Assembly (NCBI GenBank): GCA_964568815.1
Contig: CAZMRY010000002.1
Coordinates: 1-42,609, forward strand
Source: an uncultured Eubacteriales bacterium
GTDB lineage: Bacteria > Bacillota > Clostridia > RGIG6154
Reading direction: 5' to 3'
DNA length: 42,609 bases
The notes below the pieces were generated by a model. The model saw only the letters and a list, made by a program, of their open reading frames with translations. It had not been told where the DNA came from and did no database searches. Shown here in pieces: positions 22,287 to 42,598 of the stretch. The position numbers were made by a program, and so were the translations under genes. Every line of letters starts with the position of its first letter. The first letter of the stretch is position 1.

Positions 22287-22305
22287 GTATAAAAATTAAT
22301 AATAA

Positions 22306-22470
22306 GGTAGAGGTCGCATTTAGCAATCAGTACTGTGTAAATATGGTTTCCGCAAAACTTCGTTATACAGGAAAGGTGCAGATGCCGAAGTCAGCTGAGG
22401 CGTAAAGCTGTACTGGCATGGCAAAATAATATTTGTCTTGTTGTCGCACTTTATTGTGCGGAGAGCTACA
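22306..22470 (+). promoter_or_regulatory. lysine riboswitch (L-box)
   Basis: GGTAGAGGTCGC...CAGTAC...GGAAAGGTGCAGATGCCGAAG...ACTGGCA...GTGCGGAGAGCTAC matches conserved L-box core elements. P1 pairs GTAG with CTAC. Lies upstream of dapA-lysA. Confidence 0.85.
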
Positions 22471-22493
22471 TATTTTGTTTATATTGTAAATTT

Positions 22494-40050: not shown

Positions 40051-40755
40051 GTGTTTATTTTGTTTGAATTCATAAGTATTTTTACACAACAGATATTCTT
40101 TTTAATTTCGTACGTTTCCTCAGGGAATTCTTTTCCTAAACCATTAACAACCGAAGAAGAACTATATTATCTTAAAAAATGTAAAAATGGTGATATAGAT
40201 GCAAGAAATATACTTGTAGAGAAGAATATGAGGTTGGTTGCTCACATAGCCAAAAAATATGGAACAAGTTCACTTGAGTATGAAGATATGCTTTCTATAG
40301 GTGCAATAGGTCTTATAAAAGCTATAAATACTTTTGATTTTGAAAAAGGAAACAAACTTGGCACATATGCTTCAAGATGCATCGACAACGAAATATTGAT
40401 GGTAATAAGAAATATTAAAAAGTCTGCTAATGATGTTTCCCTTGATGAACCAATAGGAAAGGATAAAGAGGGGAATGAAATAACATTTATTGATATAATA
40501 ACCTCCGATGATGAAGATGTAGTTGAAAATGTCACAAAAAAAGGTTATATTAAAAAATTATATGATATTATTGATGATGTATTAAGTGAGCGTGAAAAAA
40601 TGATAATAGTATATCGATTTGGTTTATATGATACAGATACAATGACTCAGCAAGAGTTGGCTGATGAGCTCAATATATCAAGGTCATATATTTCCAGGAT
40701 AGAAAAGAAGGCACTTAACAAATTAAGAAAAGCCCTTAAAATATCGTACCTATAA
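40051..40755 (+). CDS. sigK: RNA polymerase sporulation sigma factor SigK, as uninterrupted pro-sigma-K
   Basis: FFLIS/YVSSGNSFPKPLT matches the B. subtilis pro-sigma-K processing region (FLVS/YVKNNAFPQPLS). ARNILVEKNMRLVAHIAKKY, DEPIGKDKEGNEI and ISRSYISRIEKKAL are also present. GTG 40051 gives a 20-aa pro-peptide; TTG 40060 is an alternative. Confidence 0.92.
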   Translation: MFILFEFISIFTQQIFFLISYVSSGNSFPKPLTTEEELYYLKKCKNGDIDARNILVEKNMRLVAHIAKKYGTSSLEYEDMLSIGAIGLIKAINTFDFEKGNKLGTYASRCIDNEILMVIRNIKKSANDVSLDEPIGKDKEGNEITFIDIITSDDEDVVENVTKKGYIKKLYDIIDDVLSEREKMIIVYRFGLYDTDTMTQQELADELNISRSYISRIEKKALNKLRKALKISYL

Positions 40756-40759
40756 CCCG

Positions 40760-40804
40760 ATTTTCTGTGAAACGAACTTTTGGTTGAGATTTCGCAGAGA
40801 AATT
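40760..40804 (+). repeat. left arm of the 45-nt imperfect inverted repeat (partner 42498-42543)
   Basis: ATTTTCTGTGAAACGAACTTTTGGTTGAGATTTCGCAGAGAAATT compared with the reverse complement of the right arm, ATTTTCTATGGAATAATTTTTTCATTGAGATTTCGCAGGAAAAATT. 35/45 identical, with a perfect 14-mer TTGAGATTTCGCAG (40784-40797). Confidence 0.7.
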
Positions 40805-40868
40805 GAATTGTATTGAGCTAATATGTCCATTTTTTATGTATAGTTTATGGTGTAGCAAAGTTCCGCAT

Positions 40869-40992
40869 ATTATAAACAATATTAGAGGTTTTATAAAATC
40901 TGCCAAAAGTTTTATAAAATCTCTTTTTGCTTTTATAAAGAGATGCAGAAGGTTTATAAAAACTGTGGAGAATGTTAATTTTACTTATAAAA
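40869..40992. repeat. phased array of the palindromic motif TTTATAAA (iteron-like)
   Basis: TATAAA cores start at 40871, 40892, 40913, 40934 and 40955 (exactly 21 bp apart) and at 40986 (+31). Copies 2 and 3 share GTTTTATAAAATCT. Confidence 0.75.
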
Positions 40993-41112
40993 GGCTTCTC
41001 CTTGAGGAGAGGCTCCGCCGTAGGCGGTGGTGAGGTGTAGCCGCTTGCGGCGTTTGTTTTTCCACCTCATCTGAGTTGCTACGCAACCCACCTTCCCCTC
41101 AAGGGGAAGGCT
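40993..41112. repeat. GC-rich palindromic MITE/REP-like element with six hairpins and inverted terminal CCTTGAGG hairpins
   Basis: Hairpins: CTTCTCC-TTGA-GGAGAGG (40995-41012); CCGCC-GTA-GGCGG (41015-27); GGTGAGGTG/CACCTCATC (41029-37/41063-71) enclosing GCCG-CTTG-CGGC (41040-51); GTTGC-TAC-GCAAC (41075-87); CCTTCCCC-TCAA-GGGGAAGG (41091-41110). Confidence 0.7.
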
Positions 41113-41308
41113 TTGGATAATCTACCTCAAAAGTGTCATTTATAAGTATCGGAAAAATACCGAAGATTTTTCAACCGCACTTCTTTTATGATTTTACCTC
41201 ATAAAAAGTAAGTTTTTTAAAAATTAATAAGGCAAAAAGAAAAAGTGTTGGTTTTTTAAAAACACTTTTACAAATTAGTACAAAATTGTATATATTTATA
41301 AAAATCTA

Positions 41309-41337
41309 TTGACAAGAACAAATTTGTGTGTTATACT
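41309..41337 (+). promoter_or_regulatory. strong sigma-A promoter TTGACA-17-TATACT with extended -10 (TGT)
   Basis: TTGACA 41309-41314, 17-nt spacer, TGTTATACT 41329-41337. GAGGTGA RBS 41345-41351 precedes ATG 41357. Confidence 0.7.
41318..41327. promoter_or_regulatory. perfect 10-bp palindrome ACAAATTTGT inside the promoter spacer (candidate operator)
   Basis: Self-complementary 10-mer located between the -35 and -10 elements. Confidence 0.5.
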
Positions 41338-41356
41338 CTGTTTAGAGGTGAAAACA

Positions 41357-42058
41357 ATGGAAGTAAAAATTTCAATGGAAGAAAACCTGTACAAAAGCTT
41401 ACAAATGGCATTACAAATCAACAATGAGACGCTTGAAAAAGTGGCTGATAGTATATTTAGAAACTACATATCAAAAACATTTTCAAAAGCCGCAACTGCT
41501 ATTGAGTCTGGAAACACAAAAAGTCAGTTACAAAATGAAGACCCTAACTACGGGAAGGCAATTTATAGAATTCCTAAATGGGCAAAAAAGCATAGTCAAA
41601 TCAATCATAAAATCATTCGGGCTTTTCTAAAACTTGCTCAAAATGGTGTAGTTGCATATGAAGATTTATTGAGAGAATGTACCAATCCCGATTCGGATGT
41701 TTTTGTACCAACATTTTCTTCAAATTTTGCACAAATGAAGTTTGACGGCGATAAATCTCACGGCAAGGTTTTTGTTGTTGATAATAGCAACATTGTAACT
41801 ATATGGGAATATGTAGAAGATACTGTATTTAAGTATAAGGAGGATTTTTTGAGTATGAGACCGACAGATATTGGCTATATTAACCGAAACAACCAACAAA
41901 ACATATCTAAAACAGATTGTGATGGAAACGACTACATGCAAAAATTATATATTATGCGTTGTATGGATTGTGGCGAAGAATATCCCTCTAACGGCAGCAA
42001 TATTTATGAAAAAAAGTGCCCTAAATGTCAAGGTGGTGCTGATATGGATACGAATTAA
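41357..42058 (+). CDS. hypothetical DNA-binding-type protein: N-terminal RHH-like segment, central helical (possibly winged-helix) region, C-terminal CxxC-N16-CxxC zinc ribbon
   Basis: 233 aa. MEVKISMEENLYKSLQMALQ... fits a strand-helix-helix pattern. CMDCGEEY...KCPKCQGG forms a zinc ribbon. Good RBS and promoter. No family recognised. Confidence 0.6.
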   Translation: MEVKISMEENLYKSLQMALQINNETLEKVADSIFRNYISKTFSKAATAIESGNTKSQLQNEDPNYGKAIYRIPKWAKKHSQINHKIIRAFLKLAQNGVVAYEDLLRECTNPDSDVFVPTFSSNFAQMKFDGDKSHGKVFVVDNSNIVTIWEYVEDTVFKYKEDFLSMRPTDIGYINRNNQQNISKTDCDGNDYMQKLYIMRCMDCGEEYPSNGSNIYEKKCPKCQGGADMDTN

Positions 42059-42059
42059 A

Positions 42060-42458
42060 ATGGTTGGTATAATTTGGATATTTATAGTTTACATTGCAGG
42101 CAAAATTCTTAAACTAATGTTTTATGGTGCTATAACGGCAATAACATTATATATTCTATACCATTTATATCACTTTTTGAAATGTAAATATGTTTTTTCT
42201 AATTTGGAAAAAGTTAAAAGAGTAGAGATATCTAAACCCATTCAGTTATATAAGGTTGTAAATGAAATGACTGGTTTTTCTATCGGCTACCATTATACAG
42301 AACATTATAAAACAAGAAAAATACCAGATTGTAAGCTTTATAAAATTAAAGTAATTTTCAAAAATGATAATACAATGAATATTCAATTCAAAGACAATTC
42401 GCAATTTTACACAGAAATGATAAAAGCTGAAGGATTGTACAATAATCTTCGGGGCTGA
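42060..42458 (+). CDS. hypothetical small membrane protein (2 predicted TM helices plus a ~90-aa soluble beta-rich C-domain)
   Basis: 132 aa. ATG lies 1 nt after the upstream TAA, suggesting translational coupling. IIWIFIVYIAGKILKLMFYGAITAITLYILYHLYHFL is hydrophobic. No family recognised. Confidence 0.55.
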   Translation: MVGIIWIFIVYIAGKILKLMFYGAITAITLYILYHLYHFLKCKYVFSNLEKVKRVEISKPIQLYKVVNEMTGFSIGYHYTEHYKTRKIPDCKLYKIKVIFKNDNTMNIQFKDNSQFYTEMIKAEGLYNNLRG

Positions 42459-42476
42459 AATAGCCCCGATTTTTTG
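42450..42476 (+). terminator. intrinsic terminator of the two-gene operon
   Basis: CGGGGCT-GAAAT-AGCCCCG followed by ATTTTTTG. The stop codon lies inside the hairpin. Confidence 0.8.
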
Positions 42477-42497
42477 TGTTTACACTTTTGTTGTTTT

Positions 42498-42543
42498 AAT
42501 TTTTCCTGCGAAATCTCAATGAAAAAATTATTCCATAGAAAAT
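42498..42543 (-). repeat. right arm of the imperfect inverted repeat (partner 40760-40804)
   Basis: Contains CTGCGAAATCTCAA (42506-42519), the exact reverse complement of 40784-40797. Overall 35/45 identity to the left arm. Confidence 0.7.
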
Positions 42544-42569
42544 TAAGTTATAAGATATCGTAAAATGTA

Positions 42570-42598
42570 TTGACTTAGAATTTCCATCGTGGTAAAAT
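42570..42598 (+). promoter_or_regulatory. outward-facing sigma-A promoter TTGACT-17-TAAAAT (extended -10 TGG) at the window edge
   Basis: TTGACT 42570-42575, 17-nt spacer, TGGTAAAAT 42590-42598. Its target gene lies beyond the window. Confidence 0.55.

What the first reader, a model, noticed from the sequence alone, without database searches (positions are those of the whole stretch)
40756..42543. About 1.8 kb inverted-repeat-bounded accessory cassette sitting directly 3' of an intact sigK
The rest of the window is conserved, tightly packed housekeeping. This segment is different. It begins 1-5 nt after the sigK stop codon. It is bracketed by a 45/46-nt imperfect inverted repeat, 40760-40804 versus 42498-42543 (35/45 identical, perfect 14-mer TTGAGATTTCGCAG / CTGCGAAATCTCAA). 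It contains about 600 bp of non-coding DNA carrying three different repeat systems, then its own consensus promoter, two ORFs with no family I can recognise, and its own terminator. In B. subtilis and C. difficile, sigK is the classic landing site of skin-type elements. Here the gene is uninterrupted but the foreign-looking DNA abuts it. No integrase or transposase lies inside the cassette. It would therefore be non-autonomous (mobilised in trans), a decayed remnant, or served by a recombinase beyond the right edge of the window. Inversion of the whole segment through the IRs is also conceivable.
Basis: partly seen in the sequence, partly recalled or inferred. Interest (0 to 1): 0.8.

Follow-up and report, generated by a model that had tools for sequence, protein, structure and literature searches.

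The report
Transposase-less IS1595-type cassette beside sigK
The 1.8 kb segment after sigK is a real transposon insertion: a copy of an IS1595-family insertion sequence that has lost its transposase gene but still carries two passenger genes, which is a known kind of mobile element and not a skin-like sporulation element.

Summary
The inverted repeat is real. Its score exceeds all 200 shuffles and it is the best inverted repeat in the window. It marks the ends of an 1806-bp element, 40749-42554. The element has 59-nt imperfect terminal inverted repeats (CCTATAAC.../CTTATAAC...) and a perfect 8-bp target duplication, ATATCGTA.

Two related genomes with the same gene order have sigK followed about 67 bp later by rnhA, so they are empty sites. 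The insertion split the sigK stop codon. SigK now ends ...ISYL* on a stop codon supplied by the element.

Elements with the same ends lie at unrelated loci in other Clostridia, each with its own perfect 8-bp duplication. Longer relatives (3.1-3.7 kb) also carry a 544-546-aa gene; the L052 copy, the one scored, passes NCBI's IS1595-family transposase cut-offs. In the short form a 186-bp GC-rich structured repeat replaces that gene. Two short copies are 99% identical at unrelated sites, so the short form has moved recently.

ORF1 and ORF2 are under purifying selection (dN/dS about 0.15) and their function is unknown.

Verdict: a mobile-insertion-cassette-type derivative of a cargo-carrying IS1595-family element. 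It is a new member of a known kind and of modest interest. The skin-like and inversion readings are not supported.

The parts
40060..40755 (+). sigK (context). It is intact. The last 7 nt (40749-40755, C|CTA|TAA) come from the element, so SigK ends ...KISYL*. The reconstructed ancestral end is ...KIS*, and relatives end ...KI*.
   Evidence: Sigma70_r2/r4 domains. (exact 231-aa product on Logan contig L003). Junction reading.
40741..40748 (.). Left copy of the 8-bp target-site duplication, ATATCGTA.
   Evidence: It is identical to 42555-42562. Joining the flanks gives ...AAAATATCGTAAAATGTATTGACTTA, which is colinear with the empty sites in L004 and L005.
40749..42554 (+). The whole element, 1806 bp. 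It is the short, transposase-less form of an IS1595-family element that carries passenger genes.
   Evidence: It aligns end to end at 86% with the 1800-bp elements in L053 and L054. It aligns with both ends and the cargo half of the 3665-bp element in L052. Flanks diverge exactly at CCTATAAC.
40749..40807 (+). Left terminal inverted repeat, starting CCTATAACCCGATTTTCTGTG and containing TTGAGATTTCGCAG.
   Evidence: It is conserved at the left ends of the L051, L052, L053, L054 and L233 elements.
40870..40965 (.). Left subterminal iterons of the form (G)TTTTATAAAA(T/A)CT, at 21- and 42-bp spacing. The region also holds a minus-strand promoter-like site, TTGGCA-16-TAATAT (40906 to 40879), pointing out of the left end.
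   Evidence: The block is nearly invariant across five elements whose transposases differ by up to 23%. Function is inferred: transposase binding or control of the transposase gene.
40940..41125 (.). A 186-bp filler that replaces about 2.05 kb of the full-length element (the transposase gene plus about 400 bp upstream of it). Its core, 40990-41115, is a 58% GC nested-palindrome repeat.
   Evidence: deletion mapping. (GC content). (four-way junction, -63.2 kcal/mol, z = -5.0). (dispersed repeat family). (no Rfam family).
41309..41337 (+). Promoter of the passenger operon, TTGACA-17-TATACT with a TG extension. The 10-bp palindrome ACAAATTTGT (41318-41327) lies between the two hexamers.
   Evidence: the same palindrome occurs twice, 38 bp apart, upstream of ORF1 homologues, including non-IS copies at about 52% protein identity.
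41357..42058 (+). ORF1, 233 aa. Passenger gene with a helical N-terminal part and a C-terminal CxxC...CxxC zinc ribbon. No known family.
   Evidence: no family. (81 homologues). (dN/dS 0.14). (AlphaFold2 pLDDT 89.8). (no significant structural or sequence match to solved or viral structures).
42060..42458 (+). ORF2, 132 aa. Passenger gene with a hydrophobic N-terminal helix. Its start lies 1 nt after the ORF1 stop codon. Found only in this element family.
   Evidence: only two homologue clusters, 91% identical. (dN/dS 0.14-0.17). (low-confidence model, pLDDT 55).
42449..42478 (+). Intrinsic terminator of the passenger operon.
   Evidence: 9-bp stem with 6 G-C pairs, followed by a T-run.
42496..42554 (-). 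Right terminal inverted repeat. Read inward it starts CTTATAACTTAATTTTCTATGG and contains TTGAGATTTCGCAG.
   Evidence: It is conserved at the right ends of the L051-L056 and L233 elements.
42555..42562 (.). Right copy of the 8-bp target-site duplication, ATATCGTA.
42570..42598 (+). Promoter-like site of rnhA (context), TTGACT-17-TAAAAT. It is untouched by the insertion. rnhA starts about 20 nt beyond the window end.
   Evidence: (L001 extends the window). The same promoter sequence follows sigK directly in L004 and L005.

Best explanation
Window 40749-42554 is a non-autonomous transposable element. It is a deletion derivative of an IS1595-family insertion sequence that carries passenger genes.

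**Insertion.** It entered by DDE-type transposition into the last bases of sigK. The target was cut with an 8-bp stagger, and repair duplicated ATATCGTA. The ancestral sigK stop codon was split, and the element's first bases supply a new stop two codons later.

**Structure.** The element keeps what a transposase needs in cis: about 59-nt terminal inverted repeats and conserved left subterminal iterons. It also keeps a two-gene passenger operon with its own promoter and terminator. The transposase gene has been replaced by a 186-bp GC-rich structured repeat.

**Mobility.** Further movement needs the 544-546-aa zinc-finger DDE transposase that full-length relatives encode, supplied in trans.

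**Shown:** insertion relative to empty sites; inverted repeats; target duplication; homology of both ends to transposase-bearing elements; recent movement of the short form in other genomes.

**Inferred:** mobilisation in trans; whether a helper copy exists in this genome; ORF1 acting as an autorepressor at the ACAAATTTGT palindrome; what the cargo does.
For: 1. **Empty sites.** L004 and L005 (SigK 78-79% identical, same order metA-amidohydrolase-sigK-rnhA-GH28-GH28) have about 67 bp between sigK and rnhA. The window has about 1.87 kb.
2. **Target duplication.** A perfect 8-bp duplication, ATATCGTA, flanks the repeats. Removing the element and one duplicate copy rebuilds a site colinear with the relatives.
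3. **Same ends at other loci, each with its own duplication:**
   - L051: TAAAATGT
   - L052: ATAAAATA
   - L053: AGTCTGTC
   - L233: AAAATAAA

   Flank homology stops exactly at CCTATAAC.
4. **Transposase in the long forms.** The 3.1-3.7-kb relatives carry a 544-546-aa gene. The L052 copy, the one scored, gives NCBIfam NF033547 'IS1595 family transposase' at 79.7 bits (cut-off 75) and NF050000 zinc domain at 34.5 bits (cut-off 28). It is 25% identical to the ISBwe1 transposase (E = 1e-22), with aligned CxxC...CxxC, VDETYF, SDDYDAY and NIDSFHIQLKR motifs. It matches annotated IS1595 transposases on plasmids.
5. **Family-typical duplication length.** 8-bp duplications are reported for the IS1595 family (PMC12561309, PMC10045372).
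6. **One origin for the short form.** The window, L053 and L054 share the same deletion and filler junction.
7. **Recent movement of the short form.** L053 and L054 are 99.1% identical with unrelated flanks. They are 97-98% identical to full-length copies over the shared parts.
8. **No transposase in the window**.
9. **Real passenger genes.** dN/dS is 0.14-0.17 at dS 0.44-0.61.
Against: - No helper transposase or second copy could be looked for in this genome, because only this contig is available. Current mobility here is unproven.
- The window's right terminus reads CTTATAAC, whereas all other ends seen read CCTATAAC or, at the L051 left end, CCTTTAAC. This may weaken transposase recognition.
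- One relative, L054, lacks a matching duplication. It may be a chimeric assembly or the product of recombination between copies.
- The reconstructed empty-site 26-mer was not found in JGI metagenomes, so no same-species empty allele was seen.
- Pfam's own IS1595 models hit the transposase only weakly.
Confidence: 0.88

Rival explanations
1. It is the same element, but a stranded fossil. It arrived by transposition or horizontal transfer, this genome has no cognate transposase, and the cassette is now fixed accessory DNA kept for its two genes.
For: There is no transposase in the 42.6-kb window. The right terminus has a C-to-T change at position 2 and another change in the TCTGTGG box relative to other copies. 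The same insertion occurs in Logan contigs from two samples (L001-L003). No empty allele was found.
Against: The duplication is still perfect, and both ORFs, the promoter and the terminator are intact. Short-form copies elsewhere have clearly moved recently. Absence from a single contig says little about the rest of the genome.
Confidence: 0.35
2. It is a skin-like or other site-specific integrative element that targets the 3' end of sigK, served by a serine or tyrosine recombinase outside the window.
For: It adjoins sigK, the classical skin target. A 14-nt near-repeat, CCCGATTTT(C/T)TGTG, occurs at 40756 and 42465.
Against: No recombinase lies within about 3.2 kb to the right, and there is none in the syntenic relatives. 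Homologous elements sit at unrelated loci with different 8-bp duplications rather than a shared att core. Full-length relatives encode a DDE transposase, not a recombinase. The 14-nt repeat is explained as part of the left inverted repeat on one side and the terminator tail on the other.
Confidence: 0.02
3. It is an invertible DNA switch: the two repeat arms are recombination sites for an invertase that flips the 1.7-kb segment.
For: It has long inverted repeats with a perfectly conserved 14-mer core.
Against: There is no invertase gene nearby. The orientation is the same in all independent contigs of this locus. In every copy the left-type and right-type ends keep the same relation to the cargo. 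The target duplications indicate transposition.
Confidence: 0.02
4. ORF1, a zinc-ribbon DNA-binding protein, is itself a new kind of transposase or recombinase, so the 1.8-kb unit is autonomous.
For: ORF1 has no known family. It has a zinc ribbon and a confident, unmatched predicted fold. It travels with the repeats in both short and long forms.
Against: L233 has the same ends and an 8-bp duplication but no ORF1 or ORF2. It carries different cargo alongside the IS1595-type transposase. ORF1 homologues occur without detectable inverted repeats at L226 and L232, and in chromosomal and mobile-element contexts at L238-L241 where repeats were not searched. No catalytic motif was seen.
Confidence: 0.03
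5. The inverted repeat is a chance or regulatory similarity, and the region is simply lineage-specific DNA.
For: A 14-mer inverted repeat within 2 kb is not rare in a 33% GC sequence. A match of 2 or more occurred in 9 of 100 shuffles when up to 2 mismatches were allowed.
Against: The extended repeat beats all 200 shuffles. The ends are conserved at other loci, with target duplications.
Confidence: 0.01

Closest known systems
Mobile insertion cassettes (MICs), such as MIC231 of Bacillus cereus, derived from IS231. Concept as summarised in PMC3129680, citing De Palmenaer et al. 2004.
   Same: IS-type terminal inverted repeats flank passenger genes. There is no transposase gene. The target duplication is that of the parent IS. 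The element depends on a related intact IS for movement.
   Different: The parent is an IS1595-family element (8-bp duplication), not IS231 of the IS4 family. The cargo is already present in the autonomous parent, so this is a deletion derivative of a cargo-carrying IS. Mobilisation in trans is not shown experimentally here.
IS1595-family 'transporter' insertion sequences with passenger genes (Siguier, Gagnevin and Chandler 2009, cited in PMC3129680 and PMC12561309). From memory, the ISPna2+, ISNwi1+ and ISNha5 subgroups.
   Same: The full-length relatives (L051, L052, L233) have an N-terminal zinc-finger DDE transposase, terminal inverted repeats, 8-bp duplications, extra non-transposition genes, and sizes of 3.1-3.7 kb.
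   Different: The window copy has no transposase. The transposase clade is unusually long (540-586 aa against 342 aa for the ISBwe1 transposase compared here), with a roughly 60-aa insertion in the catalytic core and a roughly 150-aa C-terminal extension. It is mostly unannotated in public data. The ends, CCTATAAC, could not be matched to a named ISfinder subgroup with the tools available.
MITEs (miniature inverted-repeat transposable elements)
   Same: Non-autonomous, bounded by inverted repeats, flanked by target duplications, and multiplied by a transposase supplied in trans.
   Different: The element is 1.8 kb and carries two expressed-looking genes under purifying selection. MITEs are short and non-coding.
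skin elements of Bacillus subtilis and Clostridioides difficile
   Same: Only the neighbourhood: foreign DNA at sigK.
   Different: skin elements interrupt the sigK reading frame, are roughly 15-48 kb prophage-like elements, and encode a serine recombinase that excises them during sporulation (my own knowledge). Here sigK is intact, the element is 1.8 kb, has inverted repeats and a target duplication, and has no recombinase.

Membership tests
IS1595-family insertion sequence (autonomous) | Encodes a DDE-type transposase with an N-terminal zinc-finger domain (IS1595/ISXO2 type). | tested here: not met
   No transposase-like sequence is present in the window (tblastn). The feature is met only in the full-length relatives L051, L052 and L233. 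The L052 copy, the one scored, gives NF033547 at 79.7 bits against a cut-off of 75 and NF050000 at 34.5 against 28.
IS1595-family insertion sequence (autonomous) | 8-bp (7-9 bp) target-site duplication. | tested here: met
   ATATCGTA lies on both sides. Four relatives have perfect 8-bp duplications. The family value comes from PMC12561309 and PMC10045372.
IS1595-family insertion sequence (autonomous) | Terminal inverted repeats. | tested here: met
   43 of 59 identical, above all 200 shuffles.
IS1595-family insertion sequence (autonomous) | Terminal sequence matching a named ISfinder subgroup. | not testable with these tools
   ISfinder is not available. The ends CCTATAAC and CTTATAAC are recorded for comparison.
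Mobile insertion cassette (non-autonomous IS derivative with cargo) | Ends homologous to those of an autonomous IS. | tested here: met
   Both ends align with those of the transposase-bearing L051, L052 and L233 elements.
Mobile insertion cassette (non-autonomous IS derivative with cargo) | No transposase gene, but one or more passenger genes between the ends. | tested here: met
   (no transposase). ORF1 and ORF2 are intact with dN/dS of about 0.15.
Mobile insertion cassette (non-autonomous IS derivative with cargo) | Flanked by the target duplication of the parent IS, and absent from an orthologous empty site. | tested here: met
Mobile insertion cassette (non-autonomous IS derivative with cargo) | Mobilised in trans by the cognate transposase. 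| not testable with these tools
   Indirect evidence only. The short copies in L053 and L054 are 99.1% identical at unrelated loci, and 97-98% identical to full-length copies over shared parts.
skin-type sigK intervening element | Interrupts the sigK coding sequence so that excision is needed to rebuild the gene. | tested here: not met
   sigK is a continuous ORF of 231 or 234 codons, depending on the start codon used, with regions 2 and 4 intact. Only the stop codon was replaced.
skin-type sigK intervening element | Carries a large serine recombinase (SpoIVCA type). | tested here: not met
   There is none in the element or within about 3.2 kb downstream.
MITE | Short (a few hundred bp) and non-coding. 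| tested here: not met
   The element is 1806 bp with two genes under selection.
Invertible promoter or gene switch | A nearby invertase, and both orientations present in the population. | tested here: inconclusive
   No invertase gene was seen. All three contigs of this locus have the same orientation. Raw reads were not available.

The most novel reading that the evidence does not exclude
Two readings remain open, and they can both be true.

1. **New accessory module.** ORF1 may be a self-repressing DNA-binding protein that binds ACAAATTTGT. It would pair with interchangeable downstream effectors: the ORF2 membrane protein here, and a 556-aa RNase_T/zinc-finger protein on another mobile element. 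That module has been captured by an IS1595 transposon and now spreads through gut Clostridia as a cassette without a transposase. Candidate roles are addiction, exclusion or defence.
2. **New structured repeat.** The GC-rich nested-palindrome repeat sitting exactly where the transposase gene was lost may belong to an undescribed class of structured mobile repeat, and may have caused that loss.
Probability: 0.2. Interest if true: 0.55.

Novelty: new member of a known kind. Interest (0 to 1): 0.3.

Why it matters
- **Annotation.** The foreign-looking DNA next to sigK is a transposon insertion and has nothing to do with developmental sigK rearrangement. That prevents a mis-annotation.
- **An unannotated clade.** The long-transposase IS1595 clade in gut and rumen Clostridia is almost entirely unannotated in public data. 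It shuttles small gene cassettes between genomes, sometimes without carrying its own transposase.
- **A lead for follow-up.** The two cargo genes are conserved under selection, have no known family, and ride on mobile elements. That makes them reasonable candidates for a small addiction or defence function.
- **Limit.** None of this changes current understanding of transposition.

Tried and rejected
- **Family searches on ORF1 and ORF2.** Pfam, PADLOC, PHROGs and NCBIfam gave nothing above noise.
- **ORF1 structure.** The AlphaFold2 model is confident (pLDDT 89.8). Foldseek against the PDB and BFVD gave no hit with E <= 0.001. There were only short local resemblances to AP2/HNH-type DNA-binding sheets and to a VapX antitoxin. 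A profile search of PDB sequences found nothing.
- **ORF2 structure.** The model is unreliable (pLDDT 55), so it was not searched.
- **Rfam.** Nothing at gathering or E-value thresholds for the non-coding 600 bp.
- **14-mer repeat core in IMG/VR.** The hits were non-specific and uninformative.
- **Reconstructed empty-site 26-mer in JGI metagenomes.** No hit.
- **Element DNA against annotated plasmids and phages.** No real match.
- **14-nt direct repeat CCCGATTTT(C/T)TGTG as an att or duplication site.** Rejected. It is not at the element boundary, and repeats of that length are expected by chance.
- **In-frame AAGGAGG-N9-ATG inside ORF1 (41856) as a separate start for the zinc ribbon.** Rejected. 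The Met is not conserved (Ile in L052), and AAGGAGGAT encodes the conserved K-E-D.
- **Helper transposase in the same sample.** Cluster membership gave no sample information. Look-ups of other transposases led to other samples.
- **Inverted repeats around distant ORF1 homologues (L226, L232).** None found.
Full report
**1. Observation**

The inverted repeat is present. The repeat finder reports arms 40751-40807 and 42496-42552, 57 nt, 74% complementary. The perfect 14-mer occurs only at 40784-40797 and 42506-42519 in the whole window.

An ungapped local inverted-repeat score of 19.5 compares with a mean of 12.5, sd 1.2 and maximum 17.5 in 200 first-order Markov shuffles of the 2-kb region. The best score in any other 2-kb slice of the window is 16.5. 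The repeat is therefore not a chance match.

The consensus promoter (41309-41337) and the terminator (42449-42478) are as described. The two ORFs, 41357-42058 (233 aa) and 42060-42458 (132 aa), have no Pfam, PADLOC, PHROGs or NCBIfam family.

**2. It is an insertion, and the true boundaries**

A Logan contig identical to the window (L001) extends it to the right. rnhA starts about 20 nt past the window end and is followed by two GH28 genes.

The two closest genomes found, L004 and L005, have SigK 78-79% identical and the same order metA-amidohydrolase-sigK-rnhA-GH28-GH28. In them the sigK stop is followed about 67 bp later by rnhA. The same rnhA promoter sequence, TTGACTTA..., lies just after the sigK stop in those genomes and at 42570 in the window.

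The junctions in the window read as follows:
- Left: ...cttaaaATATCGTA|CCTATAACCCG...
- Right: ...AAGTTATAAG|ATATCGTAaaatgtaTTGACTTA

The element is therefore 40749-42554, 1806 bp. Its terminal inverted repeats run to the very ends, with 43 of 59 positions identical. An 8-bp direct duplication, ATATCGTA, flanks it.

Removing the element and one copy of the duplication gives gcc ctt aaa ata tcg taa aatgtaTTGACTTA. This is colinear with the relatives. The ancestral stop codon was TA|A, so it was split by the insertion. SigK now reads ...I S Y L * using C-CTA-TAA from the element.

**3. The element family is mobile**

An ORF1 homologue 85% identical (P0002) is encoded with an identical protein sequence in at least four different genomic neighbourhoods. 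In those loci the same terminal sequences recur, and flank homology stops exactly at CCTATAAC.

Complete copies carry perfect and different 8-bp duplications:

| Locus | Duplication |
|---|---|
| L051 | TAAAATGT |
| L052 | ATAAAATA |
| L053 | AGTCTGTC |
| L233 | AAAATAAA |

L054 has no matching duplication. It may be a chimeric assembly.

The short elements in L053 and L054 are 99.1% identical over 1800 bp, and their flanks are unrelated. The transposase-less form has therefore moved recently.

**4. What moves it**

In L051 and L052 the element is 3.5-3.7 kb. Between the left end and the ORF1-ORF2 cargo it contains a 544-aa gene. L233 is a 3.1-kb relative with a 546-aa version of the gene. The evidence below is for the L052 protein:
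- It passes the curated cut-offs of NCBIfam NF033547 'IS1595 family transposase' (79.7 bits against 75, E = 2.7e-22) and of the IS1/IS1595 zinc-binding domain NF050000 (34.5 against 28).
- Its tblastn hits on plasmids are nearly all annotated as IS1595 transposases, among the 12 best listed.
- It aligns with the ISBwe1 transposase at 25% identity, E = 1e-22. The CxxC...CxxC finger and the VDETYF, SDDYDAY and NIDSFHIQLKR motifs are in register.
- Pfam's own models hit it only weakly.
- Most of its 117 relatives (540-586 aa) are unannotated.

8-bp duplications are the reported value for this family (PMC12561309, PMC10045372). No transposase-like sequence exists in the window.

**5. How the short form arose**

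Against L052, the window element matches at positions 1-191 and 378-1804. Positions 182-2232 of L052, which hold the transposase gene and about 400 bp upstream of it, are replaced by a 186-bp filler at window 40940-41125.

L053 and L054 have the same junction and the same filler, 91-92% identical. The short form therefore arose once. It has since diverged to 86% identity between the window and those copies, and it has kept transposing.

This matches the published concept of a mobile insertion cassette, derived here from a cargo-carrying ('transporter') IS (PMC3129680).

**6. The three repeat systems in the non-coding part**

*Left subterminal iterons.* The TTTATAAAA(T/A)CT iterons at 40870-40965 have 21- and 42-bp spacing. 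They are almost invariant across five elements whose transposases differ by up to 23%. I infer that they bind the transposase or control its gene. A minus-strand promoter-like site, TTGGCA-16-TAATAT (TTGACA in relatives), points out of the left end.

*GC-rich core of the filler.* The segment 40990-41115 is 58% GC in a 33% GC contig.
- It folds as a four-way junction (-63.2 kcal/mol, z = -5.0).
- It has no Rfam family.
- Its 3' module occurs as an exact 23-mer in 49 IMG/VR loci, with up to three copies per contig.
- Full-length copies with the same nested-palindrome layout but different hairpin sequences occur in unrelated contexts.

It belongs to a dispersed repeat family that is independent of this IS.

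*Palindrome in the ORF1 promoter.* ACAAATTTGT lies between the -35 and -10 hexamers. It recurs twice, 38 bp apart, upstream of ORF1 homologues, including non-IS copies at about 52% protein identity. This suggests autoregulation.

**7. The cargo**

ORF1 and ORF2 are under purifying selection, with dN/dS 0.14-0.17 at dS 0.44-0.61.

ORF1 has 81 homologues. Its N-terminal part of about 170 aa also occurs as a stand-alone protein. Its C-terminal zinc ribbon also occurs fused to DUF7160- and DUF7129-type proteins.

Homologues at about 50% identity occur in several contexts:
- At L226 and L232 no inverted repeats were found around the gene.
- In other chromosomal spots, such as L238, inverted repeats were not searched.
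- On another mobile element it sits next to a 556-aa RNase_T/zinc-finger protein.

L233 has the same IS ends and transposase but different cargo, a 160-aa lipoprotein-like gene. ORF1 and ORF2 are therefore passengers and not part of the transposition machinery.

ORF2 has homologues only inside this element family. The ORF1 model is confident but matches no solved or viral structure significantly. The ORF2 model is unreliable.

My best guess, at low confidence, is an autorepressor plus a small membrane effector, possibly an addiction or exclusion module.

**8. Rivals**

- **skin-like or site-specific element.** No recombinase is present. Targets differ between copies. The mobility enzyme is a DDE transposase. 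Rejected.
- **Invertible switch.** No invertase is present, and the orientation is the same in all contigs and copies. Unlikely.
- **ORF1 as a new transposase.** Contradicted by L233 and by ORF1 homologues that have no inverted repeats around them.
- **Stranded fossil in this genome.** Not excluded. Only this contig is available, the right terminus carries two changes in otherwise conserved positions, and no same-species empty allele was found.

**9. Comparison with known systems, and verdict**

The element works like a mobile insertion cassette or MITE: it is non-autonomous, bounded by inverted repeats, and served in trans. Its parent is an IS1595-family transporter IS.

It fails the membership test for an autonomous IS because it has no transposase. 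It also fails the tests for MITEs (too long, and coding) and for skin elements.

It is a new, unannotated member of known kinds. Its position next to sigK is incidental, although the insertion neatly replaced the sigK stop codon.

Interest is modest at 0.3. The more novel leads are the unknown cargo module and the GC-rich structured repeat.

Noticed in passing
window 40990-41115 (filler 40940-41125): A GC-rich (58%) nested-palindrome element that folds as a four-way junction (z = -5) and has no Rfam family. Its 3' module, CACCTCATCCG-hairpin-CCACCTTCCCCTCAAGGGGAAGG, is an exact 23-mer in 49 IMG/VR loci, with up to 3 copies per contig and mostly in short intergenic gaps. Full-length copies elsewhere keep the layout but swap the hairpin sequences. 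One example is GCCGCTTGCGGC in the window against GCCACTTGTGGC in L053/L054, a two-sided compensatory change. The repeat generates spurious ORFs containing 'PPSPQGEGF'. It sits exactly where the transposase gene was lost.
   Followed up: partly
window 40870-40965; minus-strand site 40906 to 40879: The left subterminal iterons TTTATAAAA(T/A)CT, at 21/42-bp spacing, are nearly invariant across five diverged elements. A promoter-like site, TTGGCA-16-TAATAT (TTGACA in L051/L052), points out of the left end. It could drive antisense transcription into the 3' end of sigK.
   Followed up: partly
window 41318-41327; L052, L053, L226 and L228 upstream of ORF1 homologues: The 10-bp palindrome ACAAATTTGT lies inside the ORF1 promoter. 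Two copies exactly 38 bp apart are conserved upstream of ORF1 homologues down to about 52% protein identity, including copies that are not in an IS. It is probably an operator for autoregulation.
   Followed up: partly
L233:4527-7584: A sister element with the same ends, the 8-bp duplication AAAATAAA and a transposase 77% identical. It carries different cargo, a 160-aa lipoprotein-like ORF, so the family swaps passenger genes.
   Followed up: partly
L052:4129-5763 and relatives P0084-P0199: A clade of 540-586-aa IS1595-type transposases. Relative to ISBwe1 they have a roughly 60-aa insertion between the second and third catalytic motifs and a roughly 150-aa C-terminal extension. Almost none carries a Pfam annotation or a name in public sources, and many sit on contigs of about 2 kb.
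   Followed up: partly
L001, L002, L055, L056 contig ends (about window 41089); L003 end (about window 40898): Independent Logan assemblies from four samples all break at the same base inside the GC-rich repeat, and the sigK contig breaks inside the iterons. This fits these sequences being multi-copy or difficult for assemblers in those metagenomes.
   Followed up: no
L239:4001-6666, L240, L241: An ORF1 homologue (53% identical) lies near a 556-aa RNase_T/DUF723/DUF4379 zinc-finger protein, directly upstream of it in L240 and L241. In L239 a 70-aa ORF separates the two, and the locus also holds TnpV, Mob_Pre and RadC genes. This suggests ORF1-type proteins pair with variable effectors on mobile elements.
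   Followed up: no
window 22300-22476 (+): A lysine riboswitch (Rfam RF00168, 89.7 bits). It is unrelated to the finding.
   Followed up: no
window 41357-42058, residues 163-228: The C-terminal zinc-ribbon domain of ORF1 matches unannotated DNA on a Roseomonas plasmid and in a Methylobacterium bullatum record of the plasmid collection (47-48% identity). It also occurs fused to DUF7160/DUF7129 proteins, so it is a widely shuffled small domain.
   Followed up: no
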